Source of the DNA: Calditrichia bacterium
GTDB lineage: Bacteria > Calditrichota > Calditrichia > RBG-13-44-9 > J075
Direction: 5' to 3'
Length of the DNA stretch: 64,000 bases
Assembly (NCBI GenBank): GCA_050633245.1
Contig: JBOEGD010000024.1
Span: 128,001 to 192,000, forward strand
Position 1 is the first letter of the stretch. Each line of letters starts with the position of its first letter. The translations under genes were made by a program, and so were the position numbers. Below the pieces are notes generated by a model that was given only the letters and a program-made list of their open reading frames with translations, was not told the DNA's origin and did no database searches. Shown piece after piece: positions 9,366 to 55,853 of this stretch.

Positions 9366-10406
9366 ATGAAACATAAAAGATTAATTGGGACTTTGGCACT
9401 AATCGCCATCACTGTCCTGTTCGGCATAATGCCTGTTCAGGCCGGTGACCCAGCTCGTACAGGTACCGCTGCCGGTGAGCAGCTGCTTGTGCCGGTAGGT
9501 GCACGCGGTTTCGCCATGGGCGGTTCCGACGTTGCGTTTACCAACGGGATCGATGCTCTGTACTGGAACCCGGCTGGATTTGGTAAAATGCAGCGCGACG
9601 CTGTTGGTACCTTCTCCACCATGCAGGTTTTTAACGATATTAACGTTAATTACTTGGCTATTGGTATAAAGGCTGGCAATCTGGGTAATCTCGCTTTTAG
9701 CCTAAAGGCTTTTGATTTTGGCGATATCCCGGTAACCACCAATAATGACCTTGATGGAAGCTCTGGCGCTACATTCTCGCCTACTTACATCACTGGTGCA
9801 CTTACCTTTGCTCGTCAGCTTACCGATGGTATCTCCTTTGGTTTGACTGGTAAGGTGATCTCGGAAAGCGTGCCGCGTGCAAGCGCAAGCGCTGTTGCTT
9901 TCGATATCGGTGTTCAGTATGCTGGTCTTGGTGGCATCAATGGTCTTGCTCTTGGTGTGTCTGTGAAGAACATCGGAACCAATATGCAGTATTCTGGTTC
10001 CGCGTTTACCATTCGCGCAACGGACCAGGGTTCATCCTCTGCTGATTTCCGTAATCGTCCGACGGCAACTCATGAGCTGCCATCTACGATTCAGATCGGT
10101 CTTGGATATGCTTACAATGTAAACGAAGAGAATACCTTGATGCTGAACGGTAACTTCGAAAACCAAAACTTTGGTGACGATCAGTTCCTGCTAGGTGTTG
10201 AGTATTCTTATGACAGCCTGTTTATGCTACGTGGTGGCTATCGTCTGGTCGATAATGTCGATCCTGACAATCAGCTTTACACTTGGACAATGGGTGTTGG
10301 TCTGAACTATGACTTTGGTGGAACCAATCTCATGTTCGACTATGGATTCCGTGATTCTCAGTATTTCGACGGCAACAATCTGTTTCAGTTGACTGTTGGA
10401 TTCTAA
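9366..10406 (+). CDS. PorV/PorQ-family (UPF0164-like) outer membrane beta-barrel
   Basis: TAAGGAG RBS before ATG 9366; motifs LLVPVGARGFAMGG, ALYWNPAG, AFDIGVQY, VKNIG; C-terminal Phe. Confidence 0.85.
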   Translation: MKHKRLIGTLALIAITVLFGIMPVQAGDPARTGTAAGEQLLVPVGARGFAMGGSDVAFTNGIDALYWNPAGFGKMQRDAVGTFSTMQVFNDINVNYLAIGIKAGNLGNLAFSLKAFDFGDIPVTTNNDLDGSSGATFSPTYITGALTFARQLTDGISFGLTGKVISESVPRASASAVAFDIGVQYAGLGGINGLALGVSVKNIGTNMQYSGSAFTIRATDQGSSSADFRNRPTATHELPSTIQIGLGYAYNVNEENTLMLNGNFENQNFGDDQFLLGVEYSYDSLFMLRGGYRLVDNVDPDNQLYTWTMGVGLNYDFGGTNLMFDYGFRDSQYFDGNNLFQLTVGF

Positions 10407-47130: not shown

Positions 47131-48675
47131 ATGCGTGCTTTTAAAACATTTTTGATTGTCAAACTCCTGATAGTCTCTCTGGGGCTTTCAACAGCCCTCT
47201 ACTCGCAAGATGTCGAATTGGACTCTCTGGATGCCTATATCAGTCGCAGCATGCAGGAATGGCAGGTTCCCGGTGTTGCCGTAGCGATTATTCATAAGGA
47301 TACCCTGCGCTTTGCCAAAGGTTTTGGTATTAGAGCGATTGGCAAAAAGGGTGACGTGAATGATCATACGCTCTTTGCTGTGGCATCAAATAGCAAGGCA
47401 TTTACCGCCACGCTGCTGGGAATGCTCGTCGACCAGGGACGATTGCGCTGGGATGATCGAGTTGTGGATTATCTGCCAGACTTCCAGCTTTATGATTCCT
47501 ATGTTTCCCGGGAAATTCGCATTGCCGATCTGCTGTCCCATCGTGGCGGACTACCGGTATTTGGCGGAGATCATCTGTGGATAGGCGCTCCAAAGAATAC
47601 GCGTGAAGACATTGTTCGCCGTATGCGCTATCTCGAACCGACTGCTCCTTTTCGCATGCGTTATCAATACAACAATCTGATGTTCCTGGTTGCCGGACAA
47701 GTTTACACGGCGATCACCGGAGACAACTGGGAAGATGCTGTAGAAGCAAAGATTTTTGAGCCAATTGGTATGACGGAAAGCAAAACGAACGTCATGACTA
47801 TTCAGGATTATCCAAATATGGCTCGCCCGCATGAGAAAGTGCAGGATAAAGTTCAAATGGTCGCATTCGACGATGTCGATAATGTGGCACCTGCTGCTGC
47901 TGTGGTTTCCAATGTACTGGATATGGTTGAGTGGATGCGGTTTAACATGAACGGTGGCATGGTTGGGGAAACCCGTCTGGTCAGTGAAAAAGTGATGCGA
48001 CAAATGCATGCAATGCACACGCCGATTCCGGTATCTAAATCGCTGGAAGAATTGCTTGGAACACAGTTTCTGGGATATGGACTCGGCTGGGTTGTTGCCG
48101 ATTACAAGGGACGAAAAACCATGGGGCATAGCGGTGGCCTGTCTGGAATGATTTCTCTTCAAACAATGATTCCTTCTGAGCAGCTTGGTGTGATTGTTTT
48201 AACGAATTATGCACCGGGTAGACTTATTCGGGCAATAACCTACAGGATTCTCGATGCCTATCTTGGTGTGAAGGATGAAACGGACTGGAGTCGCGTTTAT
48301 CTCGAGCGTAAGCAAAAGTCCGAGGAGACTCGGATGGAACGGGAGAAGGATTTGCAGCGTAAGAGGATCAAGAAAACGAAGCCGTCTCTAAAGGCGAAAG
48401 ATTATTTTGGAGTGTATTCATCCTCACTGTCCGGTGATGCTTCGATTCGATCTATGGACGGCAAGCTATGGTTCTATTACAACGAGCGACATACCGGCTG
48501 GCTGGAACATTGGCATCATGACGTCTATCGTGTTCACTGGCAGAATCCAATCTTTGATATGCCAAATAAAAGTTTTCTGCAGTTTTTTCTGAATACTGAA
48601 GGACGTGTTAGTCATTTGGAAGTGACTTTTTATGATCCACAAACGTTTTACTATAAAACGGCTACAGAAGAATAG
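47131..48675 (+). CDS. Serine hydrolase (beta-lactamase/class C-like) with DUF3471-like C-terminus
   Basis: SNSK (SxxK), YNN (YxN), HSG; DLLSHRGG; signal peptide. Confidence 0.9.
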   Translation: MRAFKTFLIVKLLIVSLGLSTALYSQDVELDSLDAYISRSMQEWQVPGVAVAIIHKDTLRFAKGFGIRAIGKKGDVNDHTLFAVASNSKAFTATLLGMLVDQGRLRWDDRVVDYLPDFQLYDSYVSREIRIADLLSHRGGLPVFGGDHLWIGAPKNTREDIVRRMRYLEPTAPFRMRYQYNNLMFLVAGQVYTAITGDNWEDAVEAKIFEPIGMTESKTNVMTIQDYPNMARPHEKVQDKVQMVAFDDVDNVAPAAAVVSNVLDMVEWMRFNMNGGMVGETRLVSEKVMRQMHAMHTPIPVSKSLEELLGTQFLGYGLGWVVADYKGRKTMGHSGGLSGMISLQTMIPSEQLGVIVLTNYAPGRLIRAITYRILDAYLGVKDETDWSRVYLERKQKSEETRMEREKDLQRKRIKKTKPSLKAKDYFGVYSSSLSGDASIRSMDGKLWFYYNERHTGWLEHWHHDVYRVHWQNPIFDMPNKSFLQFFLNTEGRVSHLEVTFYDPQTFYYKTATEE

Positions 48676-48774: not shown

Positions 48775-49398
48775 ATGATCCACGTATCGATAATTGAAGA
48801 CGACGATGATATTCGTGACAGCCTGGCGATTATCATAAATGGCGCACCGGACTACTGCTGCTCGGGAAGCTATAGCAATGCGGAGTCTGCTCTGGAAAGT
48901 ATGGTTGAACTTCAACCGGATGTCGTACTGATGGATATTGAGCTGCCGGGAATGAATGGTATTGAGTGCGTAAAAATTTTGCGCGAACGAGCCCCGGATT
49001 CTGATATTCTGATGCTCACGGTTCACGAAGATGATGATGTAGTCTTTGAAAGTTTATGTGCCGGTGCCTGTGGTTATCTTACTAAAAATACACCGCCGGT
49101 AAAATTGCTGGAAGCCATTCGCGAAGTGTATGAAGGTGGCGCCCCGATGAGCACCAATATTGCCCGCATGGTTATCAGCTCGTTTAAAAAAGACGTTGGT
49201 CATGGTCTCAGTGAACGCGAACGCGAAGTGTTAGCACTTCTTTGTAAAGGTAAGAGCTATAAAATGATTGCTGATGATCTCTGCATTTCCTCCAATACCG
49301 TGCGCTCGCACATCAAGAGTATCTATAGAAAGCTGGAAGTTACGTCCAGTTCCCAAGCTGTTGCTCGGGCCATCCGAGACAATCTTATTCGTCCCTAA
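48775..49398 (+). CDS. NarL/LuxR-family response regulator
   Basis: IIEDD, PDVVLMDIELPG, GACGYLTK, LSEREREVL...GKSYKMIA...TVRSHIKSIYRKL. Confidence 0.95.
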   Translation: MIHVSIIEDDDDIRDSLAIIINGAPDYCCSGSYSNAESALESMVELQPDVVLMDIELPGMNGIECVKILRERAPDSDILMLTVHEDDDVVFESLCAGACGYLTKNTPPVKLLEAIREVYEGGAPMSTNIARMVISSFKKDVGHGLSEREREVLALLCKGKSYKMIADDLCISSNTVRSHIKSIYRKLEVTSSSQAVARAIRDNLIRP

Positions 49399-49527: not shown

Positions 49528-52158
49528 ATGAGACAGATTTTCGCAATACTCTTTATTTCGTTGGGGCTATTTGCGCAGGAAAACTTGCCGATCTTTTCAT
49601 CTGACTTTTCAGAAGATAAATCTGATGGTGAGATTGCCCAAGCGACAGTTGATTACTGGGAATCCTTCTATCAGGAAAATTATTTTGATAAGGGCTACAG
49701 TTTCGAAGATATGGGGGGAACGGGCTACTATCCATTTCGCCGTATGAAGCACTTTTATGATATGCGCAAAAATGAAAACGGTGAAATTCCATTTCTTTCA
49801 CGCTGGAATGCCTATGAGCAAAGCAAGCAGCAGTTGCTGGACAATAAATCTGCTATTCTGACGGCAAGCTGGGAATCTATGGGACCAAATACCATCGATA
49901 CCCTTGCCGGACGTATGCTTGCTCATGCCTTCGATCCGCTCGACAATAAGATTATCTGGGCAGGTTCTGGCTCCGGCGGGCTTTGGAAATCGCTAAACGC
50001 CGGGGAGTCATGGATACCGGTTACCGATCACCTGCCTTCACTTCGCATCTCGGCTATTGCCATCAATCCAAACGACCGTGACATGATTATTATTGGAACC
50101 GGCACTGGAATGGGCAATAGTTTTACGCTGCAGCCTGGAGTTGGAATCCTGAAATCTACTGATGGCGGACTAACCTGGCAGCAAACGTCTTTTACTTATA
50201 TGCAAAGTCAGGGGGTATCTACCTTTAAGATGATCTGGGATAAATCTAATCCGTCGCGTTTGTATGTGGCTGCCACCAATGGCACCTGGATTTCTGACGA
50301 TCAGGGCGATACCTGGCAGCGGACATTCGTGACACGAACAACAGATATTAAGGTAAATAAGCAGTCTCCCAATATTCTCTATATGGCCTCGCAGAACGCC
50401 GGTATTTATCGCAGCACCGATTTTGGCACAACCTGGGGACGTTTAAACTCTGGCTTACCGAATTCTACGCAAATTGGCTTTTCGCGCGTAGCAATATGTG
50501 ATAGCTTTCCAAATGTGCTTTATGCCGGAATTGCCGATGCTACAACCCAGGCGGTAAGAGGACTCTATCGCTCAGATGACGGTGGTGACAGCTGGATGCA
50601 GCTATCAAATGTGCCGAATGTCTACTGCCAGCCCGGCGCGACTACAAGTTGTCAGGGTTGGTTCTCGAATACGCTTGGCGTGTCTCCGGCAGACCCCGAT
50701 CTGATTTTCTTCGGTGGCGTGCAATTCTGGCGCTCAGATGACGGCGGGTCGACGTGGACATGGCATGATTATCTTTCCAATGGCACGGGAACCGGTAACA
50801 TGGGACTTGTTTACGTCGATCAGATGGACATAGGCTTCGACCCGGTCGATCCGCAAACGATCTACGTGTTTAACGATGGTGGAATCCAAAAATCAACAGA
50901 CAACGGGCTTTGGTGGGAACGCATCAACCAGGATCTGGTAACCGCGCAGCTCTATGGCATTGCCAGTTCACAGACCGTTCCAGAGCGAATGATTGGTGGA
51001 TTTCAGGATCATGGTTTGCAGAAGGTTGATGGCCGAGGTGGTAATCTTGCCTGGAAACGCTGGACGACTTTCGATGGCGCTGGTGGCAATATCGATCACC
51101 AAAACTCCGATATCATTTATGGCGTATGGAATCTGGGAACACACTTTAAATCGTTGGATTTTGGAAACAGCGCGTTTCCGATAATGAATGGCATTACTGA
51201 GGGTGGTGTTTGGCTTACACCACAAGTGATGCATCCGGAAGATCCGAAAATACTATATACGGCCAGCACACTAAAAATTTATAAAACGGTTAATGGCGCC
51301 AACTGGACGGCCGTCGCTGCGATACCCAATGTGAATACGATCGCCATAGATCAGGTTAACCCGGATATTATTTATGCACATTCCTATACCGGAACTTCCT
51401 GGACGATTTGGCGCTCCAATGATGCTGGTGCTAACTGGGCGGCTATTAACGATCCAACCATTCCTAGCTGGCGTGTGCGTGATTTAGAAGCCGACCCCTC
51501 GAATGAAGGTATTGTCTATGCAGTGCGTAATAGTGCATTTGCCAATCGCGATCACGTTAAAAAGTCTGTCGACTATGGTAATACCTGGCAGGATATCACG
51601 AATAATCTGCCTGATATTCCAACCAATGCGATTGCGATCAGTCCGTTCAATTCTGACCATCTTTATCTGGCAACCGATCTTGGAATTTATCTCTCGACAA
51701 ACGGTGGTGGCGAATGGCTGGAATACAACGACGGTTTGCCATTGGTATACGCGTCTGACATTCACTACCACCCGGTAGACAGCACACTGCGAATCGCAAC
51801 GCTGGGAAGAGGCGTATGGAAGTCACGCTCGGCGGATGTGACTGTTGGTGTAGCACCGAACCAGCAATCGTCTATTCCGAACCGCTTTAGCATCGAGCAA
51901 AATTACCCAAATCCATTCAACCCCGAGACGGTGGTGAACTACGAATTGTTTGCCTCCGCAGCAGTCCAGGTCGAGGTTTTCAACGAGCTTGGTCAGAGTG
52001 TTGCTTTTTTATATGAGGGAAATAAAGCTGCCGGGCGCCATCAACTTACCTGGGATGGTCGCAATGACATCGGAAATGTTGTTGCCACCGGAAACTATTT
52101 TCTAAGGATAACCGCCGATGGTATTGCCAAAACAATAAAAATGAATTTTGTTAAATAA
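49528..52158 (+). CDS. Secreted BNR/Asp-box (VPS10/sortilin-like) beta-propeller protein with YPNPFNP/FlgD domain
   Basis: Many SxDxGxTW Asp-boxes; GGLWKS; GGFQDHG; ATLGRGVW; QNYPNPFNPET. Confidence 0.9.
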   Translation: MRQIFAILFISLGLFAQENLPIFSSDFSEDKSDGEIAQATVDYWESFYQENYFDKGYSFEDMGGTGYYPFRRMKHFYDMRKNENGEIPFLSRWNAYEQSKQQLLDNKSAILTASWESMGPNTIDTLAGRMLAHAFDPLDNKIIWAGSGSGGLWKSLNAGESWIPVTDHLPSLRISAIAINPNDRDMIIIGTGTGMGNSFTLQPGVGILKSTDGGLTWQQTSFTYMQSQGVSTFKMIWDKSNPSRLYVAATNGTWISDDQGDTWQRTFVTRTTDIKVNKQSPNILYMASQNAGIYRSTDFGTTWGRLNSGLPNSTQIGFSRVAICDSFPNVLYAGIADATTQAVRGLYRSDDGGDSWMQLSNVPNVYCQPGATTSCQGWFSNTLGVSPADPDLIFFGGVQFWRSDDGGSTWTWHDYLSNGTGTGNMGLVYVDQMDIGFDPVDPQTIYVFNDGGIQKSTDNGLWWERINQDLVTAQLYGIASSQTVPERMIGGFQDHGLQKVDGRGGNLAWKRWTTFDGAGGNIDHQNSDIIYGVWNLGTHFKSLDFGNSAFPIMNGITEGGVWLTPQVMHPEDPKILYTASTLKIYKTVNGANWTAVAAIPNVNTIAIDQVNPDIIYAHSYTGTSWTIWRSNDAGANWAAINDPTIPSWRVRDLEADPSNEGIVYAVRNSAFANRDHVKKSVDYGNTWQDITNNLPDIPTNAIAISPFNSDHLYLATDLGIYLSTNGGGEWLEYNDGLPLVYASDIHYHPVDSTLRIATLGRGVWKSRSADVTVGVAPNQQSSIPNRFSIEQNYPNPFNPETVVNYELFASAAVQVEVFNELGQSVAFLYEGNKAAGRHQLTWDGRNDIGNVVATGNYFLRITADGIAKTIKMNFVK

Positions 52159-52195: not shown

Positions 52196-52284
52196 GTCAT
52201 CATTGTTCCTCGCTGTATTTTTCCTTACATTTCTAGAATAGCATTCTATTTAGCTTATTGCCTTAACACGTAAGGAGATATTTT

Positions 52285-53073
52285 ATGAAACGCATAATGT
52301 TTTTTTTGCTGATATTAGGCTTCCTGGCTACAGCAAATGGACAAAATGTGGGAGAGCCTGCACCGGACTTCAGCTTTAACACGCTTGAGCACGGACAAAT
52401 CTCGCTTTCTCAATTTCAAGGTAAGGTGATTTATATGTTTATGTTTGGCTTTTCCTGAGGATTTTGCCGCCAGGTTGGTCCAACCACACAAGCATTAAAT
52501 CAGATGTATCAGAACGAAAACTTCCAAGCCATTGGCTTTGATTATTGGAATGGCAGTAGTGCACAGGTGCAGGGATTTAAATCTGCAACCGGCATTACCT
52601 ATCCGTTGGCGATGTTAGCAGGCAGTATGTCATCACTTTACGCAATTACCTACGATCGCAATCTTATCGTCGATCAGGCCGGGCTTATTTTTTATAAGGG
52701 CACCGGGGTAGCAAGCGGAGACATCAACGATGTTTTTGGCATGGTCGAGATGTTGCTAAGCCCTACTGGTATCGGTGACGACGAAGAAGTCGCAGAGTCT
52801 TATGTATTGCGCCAAAACTATCCGAATCCGTTTAACCCTACCACACAAATTTCATTTACGCTCCCGGCAGTTGAAAATGTGAGTATCCGCATTTATGATG
52901 TTTCCGGGAAGCTCGTTCGCACATTACTTTCAGGGCAGATGAATGCCGGAACGCATGAGCTCTACTGGAATGGCCGTTCCGATGCGGGTGAAGATGTAAG
53001 CTCGGGTGTTTATCTATATCGAATGGATACCGAGAGTTTCAGCGAGTCCCGCAAGATGATCCTGAATCGCTAA
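52285..53073 (+). CDS. Candidate selenoprotein: secreted TlpA/AhpC-TSA-like redoxin with UxxC motif and YPNPFNP/FlgD C-terminal domain (262 aa)
   Basis: TAAGGAG RBS; ATG 52285; MKRIMFFLLILGFLATANG signal; VGEPAPDFSFNTL...ISLSQFQGKVIYMFMFGFS-TGA(52456-52458)-GFC, in frame with the tracked ORF 52504-53073. Confidence 0.85.
52459..52497 (+). promoter_or_regulatory. Candidate bacterial SECIS element
   Basis: GGTTG-GTC-CAACC hairpin (52473-52485) with GU in the apical loop about 19 nt after the UGA; possible lower TGC/GCA pairing. Confidence 0.6.
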
Positions 53074-53264: not shown

Positions 53265-55853
53265 ATGCGCCTCATTATCGCTGTGATTCTATCCATGCTG
53301 TTTCTTATGCTTTATCTTTTCACGGGGCAGGAAACTACGCCCTCAGAAGATAAAATTTCCGGAGCCTATCAGGCCTTGAATATGCTTGGTGCACAGCGAA
53401 CCTACCCGTTTCAACAGCTTCCTGAGAATGCACATTATGCTGCTTTTGAACAAGCAAAGGCGCTGCGTGCATCGAAAAATAAAACGCTGCATAACGATTC
53501 CGAATGGAACGACATCGGTCCTAAAAATCTTGGTGGTCGCACCCTCACCGTAGCGCTGAACCCGCAGAATCCGTCCACGGTTTATGCTGGTTCAGCGAGC
53601 GGCGGCCTCTGGCGAAGCTATTCAGAAGGAAGAGGCGTTGATGCCTGGGAATATGTATCTACCGGATTTCCTACCCTGGCCGTTAGCTCAATAACGTTTG
53701 CTCCCGGGGATTCTTCGACAATGTATCTCGGTACAGGTGAGGTCTACAATTATAGTGCTGCGGGAACCGGCGCTGCTTACCGCTCAACGCGCGGTAGTTA
53801 TGGTATCGGTATTTTGAAATCAACCGACGGCGGCGCAACCTGGGCCAAAAGCTTAGACTGGAGTTATAATCAGCAGCATGGTGTTTGGGCAATTAAGGTG
53901 AATCCACTTAATCCCAATACCGTTTGGGCTGCTACCACAGAAGGTGTCTATAAGTCGACCGATGCCGGTACTAACTGGAATCATGTTCTGGACGTTATAA
54001 TGGCGACCGATCTGCAAATTAGTCCGGTTGATACCAATATCGTGTTTGCGGGCTGCGGAAACTTCGCCTCTATCGGCCACGGTGTTTACCGCAGCACTGA
54101 TAGTGGAACCAATTGGGATAAATTATCTGAGGGCTTACCTGCCACATTCAATGGCAAGATTTTATTGGACATGACGAACCTGCCGCTTGGCAATACCCTG
54201 TATGCCAGTATTGGAAACGGCTTTTCATTCAGCGATGGCTTTAGCTGGCTGTGCAGCAGTGTTGATAATGGTGAGAACTGGACAATTGAAACGACACTCG
54301 ATTATTCCAAATGGCAGGGATGGTACTCGCATGATGTTGCGGTAAATCCCACCAATCCACAGGAAGTATTTACCGTTGGAATTGAGATTTATAAGTCCAC
54401 CAATGGCGGAAGTAATCTCGCTATAAAATCGACGAATGGAACATTCTCAGGCAGAGTTCCGCCGGAAGGTCCGGAAGGCCCGGCGACCTATTCGCATCCC
54501 GATCACCATGAGGTTGTGTATCATCCAACTGATTCGAATATTTTATATTTCGCCAATGATGGTGGTGTATTTCGCACTATTGATGGTGGCGAAACATTTG
54601 AAAGTTGCAACGGCGGCCTTCAAACCAGTCAGTTTTACGGTGGTTTTTCCAGCGCGGTAACCGATTCCCAGCGGGCGATTGGGGGCTTTCAGGATAACTC
54701 TACAGCAATCTACGATGGTCAGGATGCCTGGCTTGTCCGCTTAATAGGCGGTGACGGTGGTTGGGCAGCAATTGATCAGACTAATGCACAGGTTATGTAT
54801 GGTTCCTCTCAGTTCCTGAACGTCTCTAAATCGACCAATGGGGGGCAATTTTTCTTTAACGTCGGCGTACCTGGGAACAACAACCCAACCGTTTTTATTG
54901 CGCCATTTGTATTAGCGCCGCAAAATCCACAGATCATCTACGCTGCAAGAAACATCGTGTATCAGTCTGAAGATGGTGGCAGCAGCTGGAATTCGCTAAA
55001 CAACGGCCTTCCAATTGACGGCAATCCAGTTTTGGCAATGGATGTTTCCGCGTCGAACAGTGATGTGGTTTATGTGGCGACTGTGCCATTTAATCGAGCT
55101 CGTGGCGTGCATCGTACGCTGGATGGTGGAAATACCTGGACTGAGATTACCGGCAATCTACCGGATCGCTTTCCGGGAGATATTGCAATCGATCCGACAG
55201 ACCCCGCAACTGTTTACATTACGTTCTCTGGGTTTGGAACGGACCATGTATATAAGTCAAATGACTCTGGTAGCAGCTGGACCGCTATTGGGCAGGTTTT
55301 ACCCGATGTGCCCACGAGTGCAGTAATCGTTGACCCACTGTATCCTGAGCATGTTTATGTCGGTAATGACATCGGAGTGTTTGCATCAACCGATGGTGGT
55401 ATCACCTGGAGCGACTATAGCGATGCATTGCCGGATGCGGTGATGGTCTTCGACTTGGCAATCTCTCCTCTGAATCGCAAGCTGCGGATCGGCACTCATG
55501 GAAATGGTGCCTATGAGAGACCCTTGATCGACGGCTCTGTTGGAGTAGAGCCATCACCATCAAACGTGACCGAGGCATTTACTCTTTATCAGAATTACCC
55601 AAATCCGTTCAACCCGGAAACGACCATAGCATTCGAACTGAGCCAGCGAGAGGCAGTTACCCTGCGGATATTCAATAGTTTGGGACAAGAGGTTCGCACG
55701 CTGATAGAAAATAATGTTCGCAATGCCGGTCGACATGAGGTCAGTTGGAATGGCCGAAATAACTCCGGTGAGCGGGTCGCCAGTGGCGTGTATCTTTATC
55801 AGCTAAAGGCTGGTTCGGCGGCCACGTCCCGCCGAATGATCCTTTCGCAATAG
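53265..55853 (+). CDS. Secreted BNR/Asp-box beta-propeller protein with YPNPFNP/FlgD domain (paralog of 49528)
   Basis: GPKNLGGRT, GGLWRS, GILKSTDGGATW, HPDHH, NDGG, GGFQDN, GTHGNG; QNYPNPFNPET. Confidence 0.9.
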   Translation: MRLIIAVILSMLFLMLYLFTGQETTPSEDKISGAYQALNMLGAQRTYPFQQLPENAHYAAFEQAKALRASKNKTLHNDSEWNDIGPKNLGGRTLTVALNPQNPSTVYAGSASGGLWRSYSEGRGVDAWEYVSTGFPTLAVSSITFAPGDSSTMYLGTGEVYNYSAAGTGAAYRSTRGSYGIGILKSTDGGATWAKSLDWSYNQQHGVWAIKVNPLNPNTVWAATTEGVYKSTDAGTNWNHVLDVIMATDLQISPVDTNIVFAGCGNFASIGHGVYRSTDSGTNWDKLSEGLPATFNGKILLDMTNLPLGNTLYASIGNGFSFSDGFSWLCSSVDNGENWTIETTLDYSKWQGWYSHDVAVNPTNPQEVFTVGIEIYKSTNGGSNLAIKSTNGTFSGRVPPEGPEGPATYSHPDHHEVVYHPTDSNILYFANDGGVFRTIDGGETFESCNGGLQTSQFYGGFSSAVTDSQRAIGGFQDNSTAIYDGQDAWLVRLIGGDGGWAAIDQTNAQVMYGSSQFLNVSKSTNGGQFFFNVGVPGNNNPTVFIAPFVLAPQNPQIIYAARNIVYQSEDGGSSWNSLNNGLPIDGNPVLAMDVSASNSDVVYVATVPFNRARGVHRTLDGGNTWTEITGNLPDRFPGDIAIDPTDPATVYITFSGFGTDHVYKSNDSGSSWTAIGQVLPDVPTSAVIVDPLYPEHVYVGNDIGVFASTDGGITWSDYSDALPDAVMVFDLAISPLNRKLRIGTHGNGAYERPLIDGSVGVEPSPSNVTEAFTLYQNYPNPFNPETTIAFELSQREAVTLRIFNSLGQEVRTLIENNVRNAGRHEVSWNGRNNSGERVASGVYLYQLKAGSAATSRRMILSQ

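What the first reader, a model, noticed from the sequence alone, without database searches (positions are those of the whole stretch)
52285..53073. Hidden secreted selenoprotein: UxxC thioredoxin-fold redoxin fused to a T9SS-like C-terminal sorting domain
Seen: the tracked 189-aa ORF (52504) lacks a signal peptide and half of its fold. A strong RBS (TAAGGAG) and ATG at 52285 give signal peptide + VGEPAPDFSF...SLSQFQGKVI, then TGA at codon 58 followed by G-F-C, continuing in frame to the YPNPFNP/FlgD domain. The TGA sits exactly where the first Cys of CxxC lies in TlpA/AhpC-TSA redoxins. A GGTTG-GTC-CAACC hairpin follows, with a GU-containing loop about 19 nt downstream. Established: bacterial Sec is UGA-encoded with a SECIS immediately 3', and UxxC is a common selenoprotein motif. 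Inference: a 262-aa Sec redoxin exported via Sec and possibly displayed or released through a CTD pathway, between two Asp-box propeller genes. An extracellular, CTD-bearing selenoenzyme is an architecture I do not know to be characterised.
Basis: partly seen in the sequence, partly recalled or inferred. Interest (0 to 1): 0.92.

Follow-up and report, generated by a model that had tools for sequence, protein, structure and literature searches.

The report
Hidden exported selenocysteine redoxin gene
A gene annotated only as a 189-residue fragment is really a 262-residue selenocysteine-containing thiol-disulfide enzyme that carries an export signal and a type IX secretion tail, which points to a selenium enzyme working at or beyond the bacterial outer membrane.

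Summary
ATG 52285 to TAA 53073 is one gene with an in-frame TGA at codon 58 (52456-52458).

- **Sec/Cys pairing:** of 30 orthologous loci read in the phylum, 21 have TGA and 9 have a Cys codon in that same column. The partner Cys three residues on is invariant.
- **Sec machinery:** the genome has selA, selB, a TGA-containing selD and a tRNA-Sec(UCA). All 13 other TGA-form genomes tested have selA. Five of six Cys-form genomes do not.
- **SECIS-like hairpin:** a small hairpin with a G-first loop follows the TGA in 20 of 21 Sec forms and 0 of 9 Cys forms.
- **Selection:** both halves of the gene are under purifying selection.
- **Fold and export:** the fold is TlpA/ResA-like, not a canonical peroxiredoxin. 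The tail passes the T9SS type A model, and SprA, PorU and PorV are present. PorL/M were not found.
- **New context:** in 18 of 30 loci the gene follows a DUF6029 outer-membrane barrel gene.

UxxC redoxin selenoproteins are already catalogued. The T9SS tail and the DUF6029 link were not found in print. I rate it a new variant of a known kind, of moderate to high interest.

The parts
52271..52277 (+). Shine-Dalgarno-like TAAGGAG, 7 nt before the ATG
   Evidence: Read directly. Purine-rich sites also precede the start in the orthologs.
52285..53073 (+). Full selenoprotein gene: 262 codons plus TAA, with Sec at codon 58
   Evidence: Translation with TGA=U. Full-length orthologs were found in 32 of 86 genomes of the phylum.
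52285..52341 (+). Predicted Sec-type signal peptide, residues 1-19. It has no Cys, so it is not a lipoprotein signal.
   Evidence: By inspection only. All 30 orthologs start the same way. The model shows a helix at residues 2-14. No signal-peptide predictor was available.
52348..52764 (+). TlpA/ResA-like thioredoxin-fold redoxin domain, residues 22-160
   Evidence: Pfam hits. AF2 pLDDT is above 90 here. Foldseek TM to target is 0.76-0.88 for 2ls5, 3gl3, 4nmu, 3kcm and ResA. Profile search against PDB sequences gives 3.7e-22 to 2ls5.
52456..52458 (+). UGA selenocysteine codon (U58), at the N-cap of helix 59-75
   Evidence: TGA in 21 and TGC/TGT in 9 of 30 orthologous loci at this column. Model.
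52465..52467 (+). Codon of the resolving Cys61 of the UxxC motif
   Evidence: Invariant column in 25 aligned sequences.
52473..52485 (+). SECIS-like hairpin: 5-bp stem GGUUG/CAACC with loop GUC
   Evidence: A hairpin of at least 5 bp over the invariant GG occurs in 20 of 21 Sec forms and 0 of 9 Cys forms. None of 2000 synonymous-codon resamplings reached the observed mean.
52504..53073 (+). The 189-aa fragment that a standard gene call gives. It is an artefact of stopping at the UGA.
   Evidence: P0002.
52768..52821 (+). Disordered linker, residues 162-179
   Evidence: pLDDT below 50.
52819..53070 (+). T9SS type A C-terminal sorting domain (beta-sandwich, YPNPFNP motif), residues 179-262
   Evidence: TIGR04183 scores 43 bits against a cut-off of 23. 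PF18962 scores 37.2 against 27. The model shows a beta-sandwich at residues 187-260.

Best explanation
This is a real, mis-annotated selenoprotein gene.

Shown:
- UGA at codon 58 aligns with Cys in relatives.
- The genome has the Sec-insertion genes.
- A conserved hairpin follows the UGA.

Inferred, decoding:
- SelB, loaded with Sec-tRNA(UCA), binds the hairpin at 52473-52485 and inserts selenocysteine.

Inferred, export:
- The 262-residue precursor crosses the inner membrane by the Sec pathway and loses its signal peptide.
- The T9SS (SprA, PorV, PorU) then recognises its type A C-terminal domain and moves the protein across the outer membrane, to be released or fixed to the surface.

Inferred, chemistry:
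- The mature enzyme is a TlpA/ResA-like thiol-disulfide oxidoreductase.
- The selenolate of U58 attacks a substrate disulfide or another oxidised sulfur or selenium species.
- The invariant C61 resolves the mixed intermediate into an internal Se-S bond.
- The electron donor that recycles the enzyme is unknown.
For: - **Sec/Cys pairing.** TGA sits in the same column in 21 of 30 orthologous loci and TGC/TGT in the other 9. The +3 Cys is invariant.
- **Sec machinery.** selA scores 561 bits and the adjacent selB 360 bits. selD scores 359 bits and reads C-G-U-A-A-K at its own TGA. The tRNA-SeC has anticodon tca.
- **Co-occurrence with selA.** All 13 other TGA-form genomes among the 61 relatives have selA, 12 over the cut-off and G047 in fragments. 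Of the 6 Cys-form genomes, 5 have no selA and 1 (G020) has it.
- **Hairpin.** It occurs in 14 of 14 Sec forms against 0 of 6 Cys forms in the first set. In a held-out set it occurs in 6 of 7 against 0 of 3, and the seventh has a 6-bp stem with a 6-nt loop at the same place.
- **TGA is otherwise a stop.** It ends 5 of 30 long open frames in the window and several of the orthologs themselves.
- **Selection.** dN/dS is 0.01-0.21 upstream of the TGA and 0.12-0.20 downstream.
- **Fold.** TlpA/ResA-like, with U58 at the helix N-cap.
- **Export.** The tail passes the curated cut-offs. SprA scores 754.9 bits summed, PorU 789.5 and 539.1, and PorV 253.
Against: - RNAalifold finds no consensus structure. 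Plain folding energy does not separate Sec forms from Cys forms or from synonymous nulls.
- I defined the hairpin statistic after seeing the first 20 loci. The hairpin is short and lies in two registers.
- No Rfam family matches.
- GldL and GldM models find nothing and GldK stays under its cut-off, so a complete T9SS is not shown.
- One called protein, P0005, has Trp at the Sec column. This is probably a table-4 gene call, but I could not verify it.
- No RNA run holds the gene, and the source reads were not seen.
- The genomes are kin, so the counts overstate independence.
Confidence: 0.88

Rival explanations
1. The gene is a nonsense pseudogene, or two separate genes, and only the 189-aa ORF from 52504 (or nothing) is made.
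For: Standard gene calling gives only the 189-aa ORF. One ortholog, in G062, is broken by further stops.
Against: The TGA is kept at one column in 21 loci at 32-51% protein identity. dN/dS upstream of the TGA is 0.01-0.21. The redoxin fold spans the TGA. The 189-aa product would lack its signal peptide and active site.
Confidence: 0.03
2. The TGA is a sequencing or assembly error for TGC or TGT.
For: The source reads were not seen. No run holds more than 0.16 of the sampled words.
Against: 20 other assemblies carry TGA at the same column. A relative's contig in an independent metagenome run reads F-G-Y-S-TGA there.
Confidence: 0.01
3. It is a true selenoprotein, but it acts as a peroxidase (peroxiredoxin or GPx-like) that removes peroxides, not as a disulfide oxidoreductase.
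For: Pfam AhpC-TSA scores over its cut-off (42.6 against 26). One Cys homolog is named peroxiredoxin by its source. Bcp and AhpE structures appear lower in the fold list. From general knowledge, selenols react fast with peroxides.
Against: By recalled definition, a peroxiredoxin has the motif P-x-x-x-T/S-x-x-C and a conserved Arg. Here position -3 is an invariant Gly, and the Arg position varies among R, D, N, W, H, Y and K. The best sequence and fold matches are ResA, DsbE and TlpA-like proteins. The +3 Cys is invariant, as in CxxC dithiol enzymes.
Confidence: 0.15
4. It is a true selenoprotein that stays in the periplasm. The C-terminal domain serves as a beta-sandwich module, for instance for binding, and not as a secretion signal.
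For: PorL and PorM were not found and PorK is sub-threshold. The tail also matches FlgD_ig. TlpA-like enzymes normally receive electrons in the periplasm (general knowledge).
Against: The curated T9SS type A model is passed. My own CTD profile finds 251 frames with this tail in the genome, alongside SprA, two PorU and PorV.
Confidence: 0.2

Closest known systems
[quoted passage not shown]
   Same: The same Pfam domains score over their cut-offs, the motif is UxxC, and the proteins are predicted redox enzymes (table passages of PMC9312934 and PMC13188914 seen).
   Different: The passages seen do not mention a signal peptide, a T9SS tail or a surface location. The words 'secret' and 'signal peptide' do not occur in PMC13188914. 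I could not fetch the representative sequences for comparison.
ResA / TlpA / CcmG (DsbE) periplasmic thiol-disulfide oxidoreductases
   Same: Same fold, with TM to target 0.84-0.88 and profile E-values from 2.6e-19 to 3.4e-15. The redox motif sits at the N-cap of the first helix.
   Different: Sec replaces the first Cys. The ResA subfamily model scores 41 bits against a cut-off of 170. The Pro of ResA's cis-Pro loop aligns with a non-Pro residue. The protein is exported by a C-terminal domain instead of being anchored in the inner membrane. No cytochrome c maturation genes lie nearby.
2LS5, a putative protein disulfide isomerase of Bacteroides thetaiotaomicron
   Same: It is the best hit by both sequence profile (3.7e-22) and fold (E 5.9e-11, 26% identity). 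It also lacks the Pro in the loop before the third strand.
   Different: It has a Cys-only active site and no C-terminal sorting domain in the solved chain. Its function is unknown.
Etrx1/Etrx2 surface-exposed thioredoxin-family lipoproteins of Streptococcus pneumoniae (4hqz, 4hqs, 2yp6)
   Same: They are TlpA-like redoxins that work outside the cytoplasmic membrane (profile E about 6e-14). They set a precedent for extracytoplasmic redoxins. Their role in oxidative-stress repair is recalled, not tested here.
   Different: They come from a Gram-positive organism, are anchored by lipid, use Cys only, and have known membrane electron donors.
T9SS type A cargo proteins of Bacteroidota
   Same: They share the layout of N-terminal signal peptide, functional domain and an approximately 80-residue C-terminal beta-sandwich that matches TIGR04183.
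   Different: No selenoprotein cargo was found in print. The organism lies outside Bacteroidota, and its PorL/M were not detected.

Membership tests
Bacterial selenoprotein (UGA decoded as Sec) | The in-frame UGA aligns with Cys in homologs | tested here: met
   21 TGA and 9 Cys codons in one column among 30 loci.
Bacterial selenoprotein (UGA decoded as Sec) | A SECIS stem-loop lies just 3' of the UGA with G in the apical loop | tested here: met
   20 of 21 Sec forms against 0 of 9 Cys forms have it, and the loop always holds the invariant G. The statistic was post hoc, RNAalifold and Rfam were silent, and bSECISearch was not available.
Bacterial selenoprotein (UGA decoded as Sec) | selA, selB, selD and tRNA-Sec are in the genome | tested here: met
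Bacterial selenoprotein (UGA decoded as Sec) | Selenium is present in the protein | not testable with these tools
   Needs 75Se labelling or mass spectrometry.
TlpA/ResA-like thiol-disulfide oxidoreductase | Thioredoxin fold with a C/U-x-x-C motif at the N-cap of helix 1 | tested here: met
   Model. TM to target is 0.76-0.88.
TlpA/ResA-like thiol-disulfide oxidoreductase | Conserved cis-Pro loop facing the active site | tested here: not met
   ResA's P-L-P-T aligns with Y-D-R-S-type residues, and no Pro is conserved there. The best hit, 2ls5, also lacks it.
ResA proper (NCBIfam NF002854) | Score over the curated cut-off | tested here: not met
   41.2 bits against 170.
Peroxiredoxin (AhpC/TSA, Bcp) | P-x-x-x-T/S-x-x-C motif and a conserved Arg (definition recalled) | tested here: not met
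   Position -3 is an invariant Gly and the Arg column varies. The Pfam AhpC-TSA domain is nevertheless over its cut-off.
ResA-like WAxxUGC selenoprotein (NF041054) | Model score and WAxxUGC motif | tested here: not met
   E 0.2, 10.9 bits against 300. The motif here is F-S-U-G-F-C.
Redoxin family protein selenoprotein (PF08534, UxxC) of the reviews | PF08534 domain with a UxxC motif | tested here: met
   37.1 bits against 26.6. Family table seen. I could not compare directly with its representative.
T9SS type A cargo | C-terminal domain over the TIGR04183 / PF18962 cut-offs | tested here: met
   43 bits against 23, and 37.2 against 27.
T9SS type A cargo | N-terminal Sec signal peptide | tested here: inconclusive
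   Present by inspection in all 30 orthologs. No predictor was run.
T9SS type A cargo | Translocon, shuttle and sortase in the genome | tested here: met
   SprA, PorV and PorU all score over their cut-offs.
T9SS type A cargo | PorK/L/M/N motor and ring | tested here: inconclusive
   GldL and GldM found nothing, and no control genome rang either. GldK scored 125.7 bits against 350. PF12081 was over its cut-off in 0 of 6 genomes.
T9SS type A cargo | Secretion and cleavage of the C-terminal domain | not testable with these tools
   Needs cell fractionation or proteomics.

The most novel reading that the evidence does not exclude
The surface-exported selenoredoxin is the outer member of a three-part module. 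A periplasmic CxxC TlpA-like redoxin and the DUF6029 outer-membrane barrel, which carries an invariant C-x-x-x-x-C pair, would form with it a relay that carries thiol-disulfide reducing power, or a sulfur, selenium or metal substrate, across the outer membrane. This would be a thiol-based counterpart of the MtrCAB arrangement.

Support:
- The DUF6029 gene lies directly upstream of the redoxin gene in 18 of 30 loci, across six families.
- A short periplasmic-type redoxin flanks DUF6029 in the own genome, and in G038 and G050.
- DUF6029 models as a large beta-barrel that matches only outer-membrane barrels.
- The complex prediction for the G038 pair gave weak support. The score was 0.57 against a best control of 0.00. 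That mark was reached by 58 of 80 solved complexes and 2 of 110 mismatched pairs. A score of 0.60 or under was given by only 7 of those 80 solved complexes and by both mismatches. The runs agree in at least 91% of contacts, and the partner's pLDDT is at least 83.
Probability: 0.12. Interest if true: 0.85.

Novelty: new variant of a known kind. Interest (0 to 1): 0.62.

Why it matters
To my knowledge, characterised bacterial selenoproteins work in the cytoplasm or periplasm. A selenocysteine enzyme with a type IX secretion tail, conserved across a phylum, would put selenium redox chemistry on or beyond the cell surface. There is no obvious electron donor in that location, which raises a clear and testable question about how the enzyme is recycled and what it acts on.

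The case also shows a systematic annotation gap. Of the copies in the protein database, 3 of the 4 best hits are truncated fragments and one appears as a Trp read-through. Exported selenoproteins of this type are therefore invisible to standard pipelines.

The conserved pairing with the uncharacterised DUF6029 outer-membrane barrel gives that family its first functional lead.

Tried and rejected
**Folding and RNA families**
- Plain folding of 52450-52530 gave z = -0.33.
- The MFE of a 30-nt window did not separate Sec forms from Cys forms or from synonymous nulls (Mann-Whitney p = 0.31).
- RNAalifold on the 14 Sec forms found no consensus, because the hairpin lies in two registers one base apart.
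- Rfam found nothing at gathering thresholds over the window. A permissive scan of 52400-52600 gave only a chance CRISPR-repeat hit at E 8.5.

**Wider searches**
- The search for related loci on named genomes chose a pattern from the tail (PNPFNPxTxI). It therefore returned only relatives of the tail, in many FCB-group phyla.
- No RNA holder was listed, and no run held more than 0.16 of the sampled words. Parts of the gene without cover in runs X1, X2 and X6 say nothing either way.
- GldL, GldM, GldK and Pfam GldM_1st did not show a motor. I read this as inconclusive.

**Other T9SS cargo in the genome**
- I screened all 251 frames of the genome that carry this tail for an upstream in-frame TGA with a signal peptide before it. 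Only the focal gene qualified (1 of 251).
- A looser screen, requiring a Cys within 3 residues of the TGA, gave two more contexts. Both lie about 800 residues upstream of their tail and have no redox motif, so I dropped them as ordinary upstream stops.

**Rows not followed**
- In one search: G006 (31% identity, no stop), a second G007 copy (34%, no stop), and G043 (34%, one TGA in a 687-aa frame).
- In one search: the second G079 copy, G071 and G082 had no loci, so I did not read their codons.
- selA was not tested in genomes G061-G085.
- The tree left out the truncated L132 and the partial L039.

**Limits of what I could see**
- The phylum name is an inference. Named relatives of the tail and of DUF6029 include Calditrichaeota and Calditrichia MAGs.
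- Supplementary tables of the selenoproteome papers, which may list forms with a sorting domain, are closed.
Full report
**Observation.** The window has TAAGGAG at 52271-52277 and an ATG at 52285. The reading frame is interrupted only by TGA at 52456-52458 (codon 58) and ends at TAA 53071-53073. Under table 11, the only ORF listed there is 52504..53073 (189 aa). That fragment is also what the protein database holds for this locus (P0002). The read-through protein has 262 residues. Pfam AhpC-TSA (residues 22-110, 6.7e-11) and Redoxin (22-144) span the TGA. Por_Secre_tail and FlgD_ig cover residues 179-259. NCBIfam TIGR04183, the T9SS type A sorting domain, is passed at 43 bits against a cut-off of 23.

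**Homologs.**
- A six-frame search of 61 related genomes gave 20 full-length matches. Fourteen had exactly one in-frame TGA and six had none.
- Read through, every TGA falls in one column, in the motif G-[YWHF]-[SGN]-U-x-x-C. All six stop-free genes have TGC or TGT there.
- Widening to the whole phylum held (86 species genomes) gave matches at E <= 1e-40 in 32 genomes. That is 33 copies, 23 with TGA and 10 without.
- Of the 10 new loci, 7 have TGA and 3 have a Cys codon at the column. In total, 21 of the 30 loci read have TGA and 9 have Cys.
- Three copies had no locus and were not read. One copy (G062) is broken by further stops.
- The partner Cys at +3 is invariant in a 25-sequence alignment.
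- One called protein, P0005, shows Trp at the Sec column. It is nearly identical to the G045 TGA form around the motif, so it is probably a table-4 gene call. I could not check the DNA.

**Decoding machinery.**
- The genome (6.35 Mb, 97% complete) has selA (561 bits) next to selB (360 bits).
- Its selD (359 bits) has its own in-frame TGA and reads C-G-U-A-A-K.
- Its tRNA-SeC has anticodon tca, at 71 bits by Rfam and also called by ARAGORN.
- TGA is otherwise a stop. It ends 5 of the 30 open frames of at least 250 codons in the window, and several of the orthologs themselves.
- Across relatives, all 13 other TGA-form genomes have selA, 12 over the cut-off and G047 in fragments.
- Among the six Cys-form genomes, G038, G050 and G060 have no match, and G046 and G056 have only hits of 28 bits or less. 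Only G020 has selA.
- The five genomes without selA belong to one family, so this may be a single loss. The direction is nonetheless the one predicted.

**SECIS.**
- General measures failed, as set out under Tried and rejected: folding z-score, window MFE, RNAalifold and Rfam.
- By eye, the hairpin exists in every Sec form with different stem sequences, in two registers one base apart. It is always centred on the invariant GG of a Gly codon.
- I then defined a position-specific statistic: the longest stem of a hairpin with a 3-5 nt loop covering that G.
- In the first set, 14 of 14 Sec forms reach at least 5 bp, against 0 of 6 Cys forms (best 0-3 bp). The mean of 5.57 bp was reached by 0 of 2000 synonymous-codon resamplings, whose mean was 2.91.
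- Because the statistic was post hoc, I applied it unchanged to the ten new loci. Six of 7 Sec forms pass and 0 of 3 Cys forms do.
- The one failing Sec form (L131) has a 6-bp stem with a 6-nt loop at the same place.
- The stem starts 12-14 nt after the UGA, and a G opens the loop. From memory, this fits the minimal bacterial SECIS, but no dedicated SECIS tool was available.

**Not a pseudogene or an error.**
- Between close ortholog pairs, dN/dS for codon 20 up to the Sec codon is 0.10, 0.014 and 0.21 where dS could be computed. Downstream it is 0.12-0.20. Two pairs were saturated at synonymous sites.
- In public runs, one contig (X3) spans the whole gene at about 88% identity.
- A relative's contig in X2 reads F-G-Y-S-TGA at the site.

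**Fold and chemistry.**
- AlphaFold2 with the ortholog alignment gives a mean pLDDT of 85.6. The redoxin domain is above 90, residues 162-179 form a disordered linker, and a beta-sandwich tail follows. Residue 58 sits at the N-cap of helix 59-75.
- The best fold matches are 2ls5 (Bacteroides putative disulfide isomerase), 3gl3 (DsbE), 4nmu, 3kcm and ResA, at TM to target 0.76-0.88.
- The sequence profile agrees, at 3.7e-22 to 2ls5 and with ResA at about 1e-15.
- Peroxiredoxin hallmarks, as I recall them, are absent. Position -3 is an invariant Gly, and the Arg column varies.
- The cis-Pro of ResA is also not conserved.
- I therefore read the protein as a TlpA-like selenol/thiol oxidoreductase and not as ResA itself or a Prx.

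**Export.**
- All 30 orthologs begin with a basic, then hydrophobic, N-terminus without Cys.
- The genome has SprA (754.9 bits summed), two PorU-type sortases (789.5 and 539.1 bits) and PorV (253 bits).
- By my own profile of the tail, 251 frames in the genome carry it.
- GldL and GldM models found nothing and GldK is sub-threshold. No control genome rang for GldL or GldM, so the motor question stays open.
- Among the 251 tail-bearing frames, only this gene hides an upstream TGA with a signal peptide before it.

**Context.**
- The two flanking propeller genes (Sortilin-Vps10 with the same tail) are not conserved neighbours.
- In 18 of 30 loci the gene directly follows a DUF6029 gene. In 18 of 30 it is followed by a small SRPBCC-fold gene. 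In 10 of 30 a convergent gene resembling CoA-disulfide reductase lies beyond.
- None of these neighbours is present in the three loci of the window's own family.
- The own genome keeps a single DUF6029 gene on another contig. It is directly preceded by a 166-residue periplasmic-type redoxin with the motif F-W-A-T-W-C-V-P-C.
- G038 and G050 have a similar short redoxin on the far side of DUF6029.
- DUF6029 has an invariant C-x-x-x-x-C pair and a terminal Phe. It models as a large all-beta barrel (pLDDT 67) and matches only outer-membrane barrels, at low TM.
- One paper reports HHpred similarity of Wzi-like barrels to DUF6029 (PMC9603273, passages seen).
- A complex prediction of the G038 DUF6029 with its Cys-form redoxin gave weak support only. 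The score was 0.57 with a best control of 0.00. The mark was reached by 58 of 80 solved complexes and 2 of 110 mismatches. A score of 0.60 or under was given by only 7 of the 80 and by both mismatches. Runs agree in at least 91% of contacts, and the partner's pLDDT is at least 83.

**Evolution.** On a tree of 28 orthologs, the Sec/Cys label needs two changes. Cys forms fall into two clades, and Sec forms lie on both sides of the midpoint root. This fits Sec being ancestral with two replacements by Cys. The tree has no outgroup, so the direction is not shown.

**Comparison with what is known.**
- Two reviews list UxxC redoxin selenoproteins. [quoted passage not shown] The enzyme kind is therefore known.
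- Full-text searches gave the following:
  - selenoprotein with 'type IX secretion': 1 incidental paper.
  - selenocysteine with T9SS: 2 incidental papers.
  - selenoprotein with 'C-terminal sorting domain': 0 papers.
  - Calditrichaeota with selenocysteine: 0 papers.
- For the three incidental papers I saw only the search listing.
- Within the searched library I found no description of a selenoprotein with a T9SS tail, nor of the DUF6029 link. Supplements and subscription papers were not visible.

**Verdict.** This is a real, mis-annotated selenoprotein gene (confidence about 0.9). It is a TlpA-like UxxC redoxin that is very probably exported. Surface delivery by T9SS is likely but not shown, and the substrate and electron donor are unknown. 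It is a new variant of a known kind.

Noticed in passing
G000 contig C9:25248-28205 (loci L136/L137), outside the window: The own genome's only DUF6029 outer-membrane barrel gene sits directly after a 166-aa periplasmic-type CxxC redoxin (P0122) and a PEGA/Omp28 gene. This is the same DUF6029-redoxin pairing that flanks the selenoprotein gene in other families.
   Followed up: partly
G000 contig C14:56308-57231 (locus L009:1396-2457, minus strand): selD is itself a selenoprotein here. It has one in-frame TGA and reads C-G-U-A-A-K.
   Followed up: yes
window 49528-52158 and 53265-55853: Two paralogous genes of about 870 aa encode Sortilin-Vps10 (Asp-box) propellers with the same T9SS tail and flank the selenoprotein gene. 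A LuxR-type response regulator lies at 48775-49398, and a beta-lactamase-family gene with DUF3471 at 47131-48675.
   Followed up: partly
protein P0005 (database protein, 281 aa, from a 1085-nt contig): This full-length homolog, called 'peroxiredoxin' by its source, has Trp exactly at the Sec column. The TGA was probably translated under table 4.
   Followed up: no
G062:C296:18099-18854 (L132) and G079 (two copies: C69 and C387): One ortholog is cut short by extra stops (2 TGA and 2 TAA in the match). One genome carries two TGA-form copies.
   Followed up: no
loci L026, L029-L032, L038, L126, L127, L131, L132: A convergent gene resembling CoA-disulfide reductase lies just beyond the SRPBCC gene in 10 of 30 ortholog loci (329 bits to TIGR03385 on a partial sequence).
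   Followed up: partly
G000 whole genome: GldL and GldM (PorL/M) models find nothing, even though SprA, PorU, PorV and about 250 tail-bearing frames are present. Either the motor is very divergent in this phylum or export is powered differently.
   Followed up: partly
window 9444-10001 (G000:C24:137444-138001): A sub-threshold PorV-like match (56.9 bits) lies inside the window. Several similar PorV-like paralogs occur elsewhere in the genome.
   Followed up: no
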